This document shows, piece after piece, positions 1,995-2,681 of a DNA stretch of 5,481 bases; position 1 is the stretch's first letter, and the number at the start of each line of letters is the position of its first letter. This stretch comes from a virus. Lineage: Duplodnaviria > Heunggongvirae > Uroviricota > Caudoviricetes. Both the position numbers and the translations under genes were made by a program. The notes under the pieces were generated by a model, which saw nothing but the letters and a program-made list of their open reading frames with translations, did not search any database and was not told where the DNA came from. The stretch is from IMG/VR virus record IMGVR_UViG_2728369593_000014, positions 1-5,481 of that record; one strand, given 5' to 3'.

Positions 1995-2111
1995 GGGGAT
2001 TTATCGATTTCTAATCCCTTGATATGTTAGGTATATAATCCAACACTCATGGTCGCTCTCATAAACATATCCCTTGAGACGCAGCAGATTACAACAAATG
2101 AAGCCATATAA

Positions 2112-2426
2112 ATGAACAGTAAAGAAAGTTTGCGCAGAAGATTTTTACAACTAATGACAGAAAACGTTAAATCAGAGTTACTTCTTCTGATGGCAGATAA
2201 TAACGAAGCAACAAGCAGCATTCTTGCAGACCCTTACGGTAAGATCTCACATAAAACGCTGGATATTATTACCACAACATTAACACCGCTGATGCTTCAA
2301 CGGCTGAAACATAATATCAACGCATGGGTTAATGAAGAATTAAGTCCTCCCTGCTTATGGGATTCTCGTTACGCATGTCAGCAAAAAATGCGAATTTTCA
2401 ACTTACTATCACCAAAGCTCAGGTAG
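2112..2426 (+). CDS. Hypothetical 104-aa protein encoded opposite to the lysis genes within an AT-rich segment between holin and endolysin
   Basis: Only long ORF in the 2011..2681 segment: MNSKESLRRRFLQLMTENVKSELLLLMADNNEATSSILADPYGKISHKTLDIITTTLTPLMLQRLKHNINAWVNEELSPPCLWDSRYACQQKMRIFNLLSPKLR. Local composition is visibly more AT-rich than the flanking lysis genes. No clear SD; promoter-like hexamers upstream are poorly spaced. Confidence 0.4.
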   Translation: MNSKESLRRRFLQLMTENVKSELLLLMADNNEATSSILADPYGKISHKTLDIITTTLTPLMLQRLKHNINAWVNEELSPPCLWDSRYACQQKMRIFNLLSPKLR

Positions 2427-2431
2427 CCATA

Positions 2432-2461
2432 AAATCCTGCCCTTCATGGCATACAGGATTT
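2432..2461 (+). other. Perfect 8-bp stem hairpin (AAATCCTG / CAGGATTT, 14-nt loop) immediately after the 104-aa ORF stop
   Basis: Seen directly in sequence; no strong U-run, so a weak terminator at best or an RNA structural element. Confidence 0.3.
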
Positions 2462-2681
2462 CAATGGAATCACAATGACCAACTCTTGCACAGCTGTATC
2501 CCTGACTCCCCGACAACTCAGATTTTCAGTATCTGCTGCTATCTAAAGAGAAAGCGCACAAATGCAAGGGTCTTTCATCACGTCCTGTTATTGATTGCCT
2601 GTGACCTTTTCTCACCTCATGGAACGTTTTTTCAGTTAGAAATATTCATTTTACAACCAGTTCGTATTGTTTATTCATCGA

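What the first reader, a model, noticed from the sequence alone, without database searches (positions are those of the whole stretch)
2011..2681. AT-rich ~670 bp module with an opposite-strand 104-aa ORF splitting holin from endolysin
In phage 21-type cassettes S and R are adjacent. Here the holin stop (2682) and the endolysin 5' region (about 2010) are separated by an AT-rich block whose only long ORF is on the other strand and is followed by a perfect 8-bp hairpin. Just after the holin stop, the minus strand has a short ATG-AAT-AAA-CAA… ORF that could be a remnant of an original R start. This looks like a moron inserted into the lysis cassette. By recollection, some E. coli cryptic prophages carry a roughly 100-aa DUF1327-type gene (ydfR-like) between holin and lysozyme; I cannot confirm from sequence whether this ORF is that family.
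Basis: partly seen in the sequence, partly recalled or inferred. Interest (0 to 1): 0.55.

Follow-up and report, generated by a model that had tools for sequence, protein, structure and literature searches.

The report
Antisense accessory gene beside dead ydfR
The AT-rich block between the holin and endolysin genes of this decayed E. coli prophage holds a real, conserved but uncharacterised 104-residue gene on the opposite strand next to the wreck of a ydfR-family gene; it is an ordinary phage accessory ("moron"-type) gene of unknown function, already annotated as a hypothetical protein in hundreds of genomes.

Summary
Positions 2011-2681 are AT-rich (GC 0.39, flanks 0.53-0.55) and carry a 104-aa ORF (2112-2426, +) antisense to a phage-21-type lysis cassette.

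The ORF is not DUF1327/YdfR: it has no Pfam hit and belongs to PHROG 1853 (function unknown; Sakai ECs_1097). It is a genuine gene. dN/dS is 0.13-0.39, only its own frame stays open in seven homologs, and the AF2 model is a confident five-helix bundle with no informative structural match.

The block is composite:
- The "remnant R start" is the first 10 codons of a long ydfR gene (MNKQYELVVK*).
- 2433-2596 is probably the decayed 3' end of that same gene ("X" domain).
- The ORF unit itself is a discrete ~400-nt indel, with a conserved TATAAT box and a 5-codon leader mini-ORF.

Every homolog examined lies 3'-to-3' against X or an X relic, yet each gene also occurs intact without the other. The S-R slot has at least seven states. 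The window's state is one near-clonal allele found in 624 of 5426 complete E. coli genomes. The ORF stays intact where neighbouring lysis genes decay.

Function is unknown. The most likely reading is a lysogen-expressed accessory protein. Interest is modest.

The parts
2112..2426 (+). 104-aa ORF ('ORF104'; PHROG 1853; equals Sakai ECs_1097 / WP_000138558.1, which PGAP starts 14 codons later). Predicted soluble ~12-kDa five-helix protein.
   Evidence: phrog_1853, E=3.5e-47; N-terminus conserved, M1 invariant; dN/dS 0.13-0.39; pLDDT 86.2; no TM segment.
2098..2115 (+). 5-codon leader mini-ORF (MKPYK*). Its stop overlaps the ORF104 start (AAATGA). Possible translational coupling; inferred.
   Evidence: The frame and the ATGA overlap are kept in window, L006, L009, L010 and L011 while the third codon varies. 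In L013 one extra A fuses it in frame (P0005).
2034..2039 (+). TATAAT box about 72 nt upstream of ORF104, sense to it. Candidate -10 element of the gene's own promoter; inferred.
   Evidence: TATAAT in 5 of 6 diverged sequences, TACAAT in L006. The strict two-hexamer scan found no full promoter.
2057..2079 (+). Small palindrome TCTCA-N13-TGAGA in the putative 5' leader. Conserved in 4 of 6 relatives. Role unknown.
   Evidence: The RNA fold of the leader is not better than shuffles.
1995..2032 (-). Conserved region upstream of the R start. It is shared with phages that lack ORF104, so it is not part of the inserted unit.
   Evidence: homology to BP-4795 extends to about 2032.
2432..2461 (+). 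Not a credible intrinsic terminator.
   Evidence: z = -0.67, no U tract.
2433..2596 (-). Probable decayed 3' end of a long ydfR-family gene ('X' domain, PHROG 1085), with in-frame stops and a frameshift. It ends ...MKGRI where intact X ends ...LKGRI*.
   Evidence: 24.6-28.9 bits; shuffles 17.3 +/- 1.7, max 22.7. It is collinear with X in every intact locus. Nothing is annotated there in 625 records.
2646..2678 (-). 5' stub of the same ydfR-family gene: MNKQYELVVK followed by a stop. The internal-deletion junction lies at about 2643-2648.
   Evidence: 10/10 identity to the N-terminus of P0099. Homology to BP-4795 and phage 86 resumes at 2643.
2682..2888 (-). Phage-21-type class II holin (68 aa).
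   Evidence: PF04971, 3.2e-32; PGAP annotation of the same sequence.
1459..1994 (-). Endolysin (phage lysozyme). It is a pseudogene here: 2 extra bases (+strand T at about 1970 and about 1974) give MNEKIK*.
   Evidence: It is intact in the closest genome.

Best explanation
SHOWN: The block is a composite of two things.

(1) A self-contained antisense gene unit at about 2033-2426. It encodes a soluble 104-residue five-helix protein of a tiny family restricted to E. coli-type lambdoid prophages (PHROG 1853). The gene is under purifying selection. It is present or absent as a discrete ~400-nt indel. It stays intact when the surrounding lysis genes decay.

(2) The wreck of a long ydfR-family late gene that originally lay 3'-to-3' against it: a 10-codon 5' stub, an internal deletion, and a probable decayed 3' end.

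INFERRED: ORF104 is a moron-type accessory gene. It is transcribed from its own promoter (conserved TATAAT at 2034-2039) against the direction of the late operon. It is therefore expressed independently of lysis, most likely in the lysogen. It is translated via a 5-codon leader mini-ORF coupled to its start. Its product probably acts by protein-protein binding rather than as an enzyme, membrane protein or nucleic-acid binder, because it is small, has no TM segment, and its pI is not conserved (5.4-9.3).

In every intact locus the stop codons of ORF104 and its convergent neighbour lie -33 to +19 nt apart, with no terminator between them. Its transcript must therefore overlap the late-strand transcript. 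A secondary effect of damping leaky S-to-R read-through by convergent transcription is plausible.

The molecular target is unknown.
For: Gene reality:
- dN/dS 0.13-0.39, and only its own frame is open in 7 homologs.
- Full-length conservation including the N-terminus.
- Confident AF2 model, pLDDT 86.2.

Family:
- phrog_1853, E=3.5e-47.
- Only 16 clusters among 5.8e9 proteins, and 15 representatives among 1.84e9 proteins.

Discrete unit and foreign composition:
- L017 against L004 indel.
- GC 0.38 against 0.53-0.55.

ydfR wreck:
- The stub is 10/10 identical to P0099.
- The relic scores 24.6-28.9 bits, against a shuffle maximum of 22.7, in the collinear position.
- X is the C-terminal domain of DUF1327-X fusion proteins.

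Survival in decayed cassettes:
- L009: R frameshifted, Rz broken, no holin.
- L013/L014: no S, R or Rz.
- L010: X frameshifted.
- Window: R frameshifted.
- L002: R cut by IS3.

Other:
- Promoter and leader conservation.
- No terminator: spacing -33 to +19 nt, and the hairpin is not significant.
- Soluble, with variable pI.
Against: - No expression data were found. No paper mentions ECs1097 or its neighbours, and no Hfq-bound RNA maps to the slot in the part of the Tree et al. table that I read.
- The strict promoter scan found no sigma-70 site in 1900-3100, so the promoter rests on one conserved hexamer.
- The window-type allele is near-clonal (>= 99% in 613 of 629 records), so its intactness in 624 genomes says little about selection by itself.
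- The X-relic similarity is weak.
Confidence: 0.6

Rival explanations
1. X (the long-YdfR C-terminal domain protein) and ORF104 form a functional two-gene system, for example a late-expressed effector plus an antisense-encoded regulator or antidote. The window carries an orphaned ORF104 after loss of X.
For: - Every ORF104 homolog examined lies 3'-to-3' against X or an X relic.
- This includes the most distant members (34-42% identity). There the partner is an X homolog (hhalign 99.2-99.8%) and the pair sits upstream of the holin instead of between S and R.
- Stop codons are always -33 to +19 nt apart, and divergences correlate (Spearman 0.79).
Against: - Each gene occurs intact without the other. 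X alone: L020, P0116 in at least 147 collection blocks, and P0079. ORF104 alone: 624 genomes.
- Alleles are shuffled: X 93% identical with ORF104 only 47% (L011 vs L031). That argues against cognate specificity.
- No PADLOC hit for either protein.
- The adjacency could simply reflect common descent of a linked block.
Confidence: 0.22
2. ORF104 is a lysis regulator (antiholin-like, or a controller of the SAR endolysin) that belongs functionally to the lysis cassette.
For: - It is located inside or next to lysis cassettes in all phage-borne copies.
Against: - It is antisense to the late operon, so it is not co-transcribed with S and R.
- It has no TM segment (max hydropathy 0.66).
- It is kept intact where S, R and Rz are lost or broken.
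- Many functional cassettes lack it.
Confidence: 0.06
3. The ORF is a chance open frame in AT-rich junk DNA. The block is only a decaying remnant with no function.
For: - The neighbourhood is clearly decaying: R frameshift, ydfR wreck, IS element, broken esterase gene.
- There is no known domain and no expression data.
Against: - dN/dS is 0.13-0.39 at dS up to saturation, and the frame is open in all 7 homologs while the other frames carry 3-12 stops.
- 15 residues are invariant across 34-100% identity.
- The fold prediction is confident.
Confidence: 0.03
4. The module's functional product is a regulatory small RNA (such as the prophage sRNAs HnrS or AgvB of EHEC) rather than a protein.
For: EHEC prophage late regions are rich in Hfq-bound sRNAs (PMC4104026; PMC13502914).
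Against: - No Rfam hit in 2011-2681 even at E <= 1.
- The HnrS region of Sakai Sp10 has no match in the window.
- No EcOnc peak falls in the Sp4 S-R slot in the part of the table that I read.
- The leader and the 3' region fold no better than shuffles.
- The codon-level selection needs a protein.
Confidence: 0.03

Closest known systems
PHROG 1853 (phage protein family of unknown function; includes Stx2-converting phage 86 gp06 / orf6 and E. coli O157:H7 Sakai ECs_1097)
   Same: - Direct sequence membership (E=3.5e-47).
- Same length of 104-106 aa.
- Same antisense position next to the lysozyme gene in phage 86 and Stx2_12E129.
   Different: - The window copy belongs to a different allele group (about 50% aa identity to the phage-86 group).
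- It uses a leader mini-ORF instead of a classical GAGGA Shine-Dalgarno.
- It has lost its convergent neighbour.
YdfR / DUF1327 (PF07041), the usual occupant of the S-R slot (Qin prophage ydfR; BP-4795 ORF47). Reported to bind the RNase E catalytic domain and possibly RNA (PMC13232886).
   Same: - Same slot between a P21-type holin and the lysozyme.
- The window still carries the first 10 codons of such a gene.
   Different: ORF104 is on the opposite strand, has no PF07041 hit and has no detectable similarity. The ydfR gene of this locus is dead (stub plus relic).
Lambdoid phage morons (for example lambda bor and lom, as defined by Hendrix and colleagues; from my own knowledge)
   Same: - An extra gene between conserved neighbours.
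- Present or absent among related phages.
- Deviant base composition.
- Plausibly its own promoter.
- Retained in prophages.
   Different: - No terminator of its own.
- It is antisense and embedded within the late operon, so the late transcript must read through it to reach R.
- Expression in the lysogen has not been shown.
Convergent antisense arrangements in lambdoid phages (lambda OOP RNA against the 3' end of cII; from my own knowledge)
   Same: A convergent transcript that must overlap the 3' end of a gene on the other strand (stop codons -33 to +19 nt apart).
   Different: Here the antisense partner is a conserved protein-coding gene, and no RNA-level regulation has been shown.

Membership tests
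DUF1327 / YdfR family (PF07041) | Significant match of the protein to the PF07041 profile | tested here: not met
   ORF104 has 0 Pfam families at E <= 0.1. Positive control: the phage-86 YdfR-X fusion scores 3.7e-45.
DUF1327 / YdfR family (PF07041) | Encoded on the late-operon strand between holin and endolysin | tested here: not met
   ORF104 is on the + strand, while S and R are on the - strand. True ydfR genes share the S/R strand.
DUF1327 / YdfR family (applies to the minus-strand stub at 2646-2678 only) | N-terminal sequence of a YdfR protein, starting 3-4 nt after the holin stop | tested here: met
   MNKQYELVVK is 10/10 identical to P0099 and 8/10 to BP-4795 YdfR. The gene is truncated by a stop after codon 10.
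PHROG 1853 | Significant match to the family profile over the full protein | tested here: met
   E=3.5e-47, residues 1-102 on profile positions 57-158 of 159. Phage 86 gp06 matches the same positions. The first 56 profile positions are therefore not part of typical members.
Moron (accessory gene unit in a lambdoid genome) | Present or absent between the same conserved flanking genes in related phages | tested here: met
   L004 (447 nt with the ORF) against L017 (31-nt linker) between the X stop and the R start. Slot states without the ORF.
Moron (accessory gene unit in a lambdoid genome) | Base composition distinct from neighbouring phage genes | tested here: met
   GC 0.384 (GC3 0.37), against 0.53-0.55 (GC3 0.59-0.68).
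Moron (accessory gene unit in a lambdoid genome) | Own promoter | tested here: inconclusive
   TATAAT is conserved in 5 of 6 diverged relatives, but no full sigma-70 consensus site was found by the scan.
Moron (accessory gene unit in a lambdoid genome) | Own terminator | tested here: not met
   The hairpin at 2432-2461 has z = -0.67 and no U tract. The convergent genes are -33 to +19 nt apart.
Moron (accessory gene unit in a lambdoid genome) | Expressed from the repressed prophage | not testable with these tools
   No transcriptome data are accessible and there are no literature hits.
Phage-21-type lysis cassette (pinholin-type holin, lysozyme-family endolysin, Rz/Rz1) | PF04971 holin, PF00959 lysozyme, and PF03245 Rz with an embedded Rz1, all on one strand | tested here: met
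   (3.2e-32, 2.7e-22, 1.3e-48). The Rz1-like ORF is at 566-751. The endolysin is frameshifted in this window.
Known anti-phage defence or toxin-antitoxin systems | Match of ORF104 or X to a PADLOC, NCBIfam or Pfam model of such systems | tested here: not met
   No hits.

The most novel reading that the evidence does not exclude
X (the C-terminal domain of long YdfR proteins) and ORF104 are a conserved convergent two-gene module of the lambdoid late region. It is kept together across 34-42% sequence divergence and in two different positions relative to the holin. In this reading the antisense-encoded protein, or its obligatorily overlapping transcript, controls a late-strand protein linked to RNase E through its YdfR domain, or gates leaky late transcription into the lysis genes. 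ORF104 has then been kept, in effect domesticated, in EHEC and other E. coli after the lysis genes decayed.
Probability: 0.15. Interest if true: 0.6.

Novelty: new member of a known kind. Interest (0 to 1): 0.3.

Why it matters
If ORF104 is a lysogen-expressed protein, it is one more uncharacterised prophage accessory gene. It is carried by roughly one in nine complete E. coli genomes, including O157:H7, O103:H2, O111:H8 and O145:H28. It sits in the cassette that releases Shiga toxin.

Three features make it a tractable candidate for a host-beneficial or regulatory function:
- it persists while the lysis genes around it decay;
- it is always adjacent to the ydfR/X gene;
- its transcript must overlap the late transcript.

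The practical value of this analysis is a corrected annotation:
- the true start is at 2112;
- there is an unannotated ydfR wreck;
- the "X" domain is an unrecognised C-terminal domain of long YdfR proteins;
- the S-R junction is a multi-state hot spot rather than a fixed S-R or S-ydfR-R arrangement.

Tried and rejected
1. DUF1327 membership of the ORF: rejected (control).
2. "Remnant of the R start": rejected. It is a ydfR 5' stub.
3. The hairpin as a terminator: rejected.
4. The 8-bp inverted pair ATTTCTAA/TTAGAAAT at 2007-2014 and 2636-2643 as terminal repeats of a mobile module: rejected. Ten such exact 8-mer pairs occur in 801 nt. The left arm also lies in sequence shared with phages that lack the module (homology to about 2032).
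5. sRNA content: no Rfam match in the module, and HnrS is absent from the window. The only Rfam near-hit (rimP leader, E=0.57, 1304-1378) is just a terminator hairpin outside the finding.
7. Structure of X: the AF2 model is too poor (pLDDT 46.6), so no fold search was run on it.
8. Defence or TA annotation: none.
9. Obligate X-ORF104 pairing: weakened by intact single-gene states and by allele shuffling.
10. Literature and expression evidence for ECs1097 and its neighbours: none found.
11. A search for less-decayed versions of the relic in E. coli genomes found only the same near-clonal allele.

Full report
**Setting**

The window is the late/lysis region of a decayed lambdoid prophage, with the late genes on the minus strand. 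From high to low coordinates it contains:

| Feature | Coordinates |
|---|---|
| DUF1737 fragment | 4826-5059 |
| Two DUF6645 fragments | 4176-4829, 3334-3708 |
| P21-type holin | 2682-2888 |
| The AT-rich block | 2011-2681 |
| Phage lysozyme | 1459-1994 |
| Small PHROG-1115 ORF | 1120-1335 |
| Rz, with embedded Rz1 | 504-977 |
| 3' end of an IS3-family transposase | about 1-328 |

The closest complete genome, E. coli MFDS1001074, is 99.4% identical over 321-5481 and has the same gene order.

**Observation**

- The 104-aa ORF is at 2112-2426 on the + strand.
- The block is AT-rich: GC 0.392, against 0.53-0.55 in R, S and Rz. GC3 of the ORF is 0.37, against 0.59 and 0.68.
- The 8-bp inverted repeat lies at 2432-2439 and 2454-2461.
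- The short minus-strand ORF follows the holin stop.

Two corrections are needed.
- The endolysin ATG is at 1994, and the gene is broken. Relative to intact copies the window has two extra bases (+strand T at about 1970 and about 1974), giving MNEKIK* instead of MNEKIKYGLSAAV.... The closest relative has an intact 534-nt gene.
- The hairpin is unremarkable. It has a 14-nt loop and no U tract, its MFE z-score is -0.67, and ten exact 8-mer inverted pairs occur in the same 801 nt.

**The ORF is a real gene, and it is not ydfR**

It has no Pfam, NCBIfam or PADLOC match. A genuine YdfR-domain protein scores 3.7e-45 on PF07041 in the same kind of scan. The ORF matches PHROG 1853 (unknown function) at E=3.5e-47.

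The family is tiny. It has 16 clusters among 5.8 billion proteins and 15 representatives among 1.84 billion when HMMER reads every sequence. All named members are E. coli.

Evidence that it codes for a protein:
- Across seven homologs, dN/dS is 0.13-0.39 in the 19 pairs where it can be computed (dS is saturated in the other two).
- Only the ORF's own frame is free of stops, while the other five frames carry 3-12 stops each.
- The N-terminal 14 residues are conserved and M1 is invariant. The true start is therefore ATG 2112, not the later Met that PGAP uses for the 90-aa WP_000138558.1 / ECs_1097.

AlphaFold2 gives a confident five-helix bundle (pLDDT 86.2). The protein has no hydrophobic segment, and its pI ranges from 5.4 to 9.3 across the family.

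Searches for function by structure found nothing informative:
- Foldseek against viral models: E >= 0.8.
- Foldseek against PDB: E >= 1.9.
- PDB sequence profile: nothing.

**Anatomy of the block**

Comparison with BP-4795 (S - ydfR - R) shows homology up to about 2032 on the R side and from 2643 on the holin side.

It is 10/10 identical to the N-terminus of a 287-aa "long YdfR" (P0099) and 8/10 to BP-4795 YdfR. It begins 3 nt after the holin stop, exactly where ydfR begins.

In phages and prophages with an intact arrangement, ORF104 converges on a minus-strand gene that I call X. These include Stx2 phage 86, Stx2_12E129, and L006, L007, L008, L011, L012, L019 and L031-33. X is 185-222 aa, belongs to PHROG 1085 and has no Pfam match.

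A homology search shows what X is. It is the C-terminal domain of long YdfR proteins, and many relatives are DUF1327-X fusions of 268-333 aa that sources call "YdfR family protein".

Window 2433-2596 on the minus strand retains weak, collinear similarity to the last ~70 residues of X.
- It scores 24.6-28.9 bits, against 17.3 +/- 1.7 (maximum 22.7) for shuffles.
- It contains two in-frame stops and a frameshift.
- It ends ...MKGRI where X ends ...LKGRI*.

That level of decay fits neutral drift at the synonymous distance seen between the window and its nearest ORF104 relatives (dS about 0.6-0.7). This last point is inference.

So 2427-2681 is best read as one dead long-ydfR gene with an internal deletion. 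Nothing is annotated there in any of 625 matching records.

**The ORF unit as an indel, and its signals**

L017 and L018 carry S - partial ydfR - X relic - R with no ORF104. Between the X stop and the R start they have a 31-nt linker, where phage 86 has 447 nt containing ORF104 and its upstream region.

Upstream of ORF104, the window clade conserves three features:
- A TATAAT box at 2034-2039, present in 5 of 6 relatives (TACAAT in one).
- A TCTCA-N13-TGAGA palindrome at 2057-2079, present in 4 of 6.
- A 5-codon mini-ORF (2098-2115, MKPYK*) whose stop overlaps the ORF104 ATG. Its third codon varies while the frame is kept.

The phage-86 clade instead has a classical GAGGA Shine-Dalgarno. The strict two-hexamer promoter scan found nothing in 1900-3100, so the promoter remains an inference.

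**Distribution**

The S-R slot has at least seven states.

| State | Arrangement | Example |
|---|---|---|
| 1 | S-R adjacent | phage 21 (from my own knowledge, not tested here) |
| 2 | S-ydfR-R | BP-4795 |
| 3 | S-long YdfR-R | P0116, in at least 147 collection blocks |
| 4 | S-X-R | L020, L030 |
| 5 | S-X-ORF104-R, or S-YdfR::X-ORF104-R | about 30 + 64 complete genomes; 4 phage records |
| 6 | S-partial ydfR-X relic-R | about 1000 genomes |
| 7 | The window's state | 624 of 5426 complete genomes |

The window's state is a near-clonal allele: 613 of 629 records are at least 99% identical. It is found in O157:H7, O103:H2, O111:H8, O145:H28 and others, and in no deposited phage genome. The arrangement is therefore neither ancestral nor universal.

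**Linkage with X**

Every ORF104 homolog examined lies 3'-to-3' against X or an X relic.
- This includes the most distant members, P0024 (34% identity) and P0020 (42%).
- Their partners are X homologs (hhalign probability 99.2% and 99.8%).
- In those loci the pair lies upstream of the holin: Q ... X - ORF104 - S - R - Rz.
- Stop codons are -33 to +19 nt apart in eight loci, which leaves no room for a terminator.

Against a strict functional pair:
- Each gene occurs intact alone.
- Alleles are shuffled: between L011 and L031, X is 93% identical but ORF104 only 47%.

**Persistence**

ORF104 is the intact survivor in several decayed cassettes:
- L009: R frameshifted and truncated, Rz broken, no holin.
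- L013/L014: no S, R or Rz, only X relics.
- L010: X frameshifted.
- L002: R cut by an IS3 element.
- The window itself: R frameshifted, ydfR/X deleted.

Pairs among these copies still give dN/dS of 0.19-0.31.

**Mechanism**

Shown:
- ORF104 is a selected, independently inherited, antisense protein-coding unit of foreign composition.
- It sits beside a ydfR wreck.

Inferred:
- It has its own promoter and is therefore expressed independently of the late operon, most likely in the lysogen.
- Its translation is coupled to a leader mini-ORF.
- The small helical protein acts by binding a partner.
- Its transcript necessarily overlaps the late-strand transcript, which could damp leaky S-to-R read-through.

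The target is unknown.

[quoted passage not shown] This is context for the dead neighbour, not for ORF104.

**Known or new**

The gene is already annotated as a hypothetical protein (ECs_1097, phage 86 gp06, PHROG 1853), and I found no paper about it. It is an uncharacterised member of the well-known class of lambdoid accessory (moron-type) genes. Interest is modest.

Three aspects are more interesting:
- the invariable adjacency to X across deep divergence;
- the obligatory transcript overlap;
- the survival in decayed cassettes of pathogenic E. coli.

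Noticed in passing
window 1459-1994 (-), insertions at about 1970 and 1974: The endolysin is a pseudogene here. Two extra bases relative to intact copies give MNEKIK*. The next in-frame ATG (1875) exists only because of an ACG-to-ATG change. A product starting there would lack the N-terminal hydrophobic segment, and, by comparison with phage 21 R (from my own knowledge), probably the catalytic Glu. The closest genome (99.4% identical) has an intact gene, so the lesion is private to this source or is a sequencing error.
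   Followed up: yes
window 2098-2115 (+): A 5-codon mini-ORF (MKPYK*) overlaps the ORF104 start as AAATGA. It is conserved in frame in 5 relatives with a variable third codon. In L013/L014 one extra A fuses it to the ORF (P0005, MKFYKMNSEE...). The phage-86 clade has a normal Shine-Dalgarno instead. This suggests translational coupling in place of an SD.
   Followed up: partly
window 1339-1375 (both strands): A strong GC hairpin with T runs on both sides (AAAACCCCG...CGGGGTTTTT) lies between the endolysin stop and the PHROG-1115 small ORF. It is a likely bidirectional terminator inside the lysis operon. It caused the only Rfam near-hit (rimP leader, E=0.57), which is spurious.
   Followed up: partly
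window 1-328 (+): The 3' end of an IS3-family (IS629/IS1203-like) transposase gene abuts the region just downstream of Rz. The same element family interrupts the lysozyme gene in O157:H7 PV15-279 (L002) and truncates ORF104 in one database variant (P0013).
   Followed up: partly
window 3334-3708, 4176-4829, 4826-5059 (-): The DUF1737 and DUF6645 pieces are fragments of a broken nanS-p-type esterase gene, duplicated. In relatives such as L001 and L010 a single 1.85-1.96-kb SASA/DUF6645 esterase gene occupies this place. PGAP marks the pieces as incomplete in the closest genome.
   Followed up: partly
window about 5294-5481 (+), AT-rich right end (GC 0.30-0.35): By position in the closest genome (L021 6474-6809), the window's right end runs into an iraM-type anti-adapter gene at the late-promoter moron site. 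This was not examined further.
   Followed up: no
L004 2792-3598, L005 2797-3438, L026 2501-3391 and relatives: The 'X' domain is the C-terminal ~150-190 residues of long 'YdfR family' proteins, and it also occurs as a stand-alone gene. It has no Pfam model. It has a strongly conserved motif (RIGRCMGYLQVAAEIEA ... PPFK ... W..PG..YLKGRI). AlphaFold2 models it poorly (pLDDT 46.6). It is an unrecognised domain family restricted to Escherichia and Shigella prophages.
   Followed up: partly
L013 3317-4330 and L014 1540-2553: An intact ORF104 homolog sits in a chromosomal remnant with no holin, lysozyme or Rz, directly downstream of a PerC-family gene. In Sakai Sp4 and in L001 a PerC/pchA gene also lies just beyond Rz. 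It is not resolved whether the PerC neighbourhood is more than shared prophage ancestry.
   Followed up: no
window 1995-2005 against L006/L009/L011 (alignment A2): The window-type allele lacks 10 nt (ATATTTATCA, one copy of a short direct repeat) immediately upstream of the R start codon, compared with the other alleles. Intact-R copies such as L001 share this deletion, so it is presumably tolerated.
   Followed up: no
L004 about 2395-2425 (+): In phage 86 a relic of the ydfR 3' end and a terminator-like hairpin (CGCCAG-N10-CTGGCG-TTTTT, + strand) lie between the R start and the ORF104 upstream region. This hints that the ORF104 unit was inserted into a pre-existing ydfR-R junction in that lineage.
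   Followed up: no
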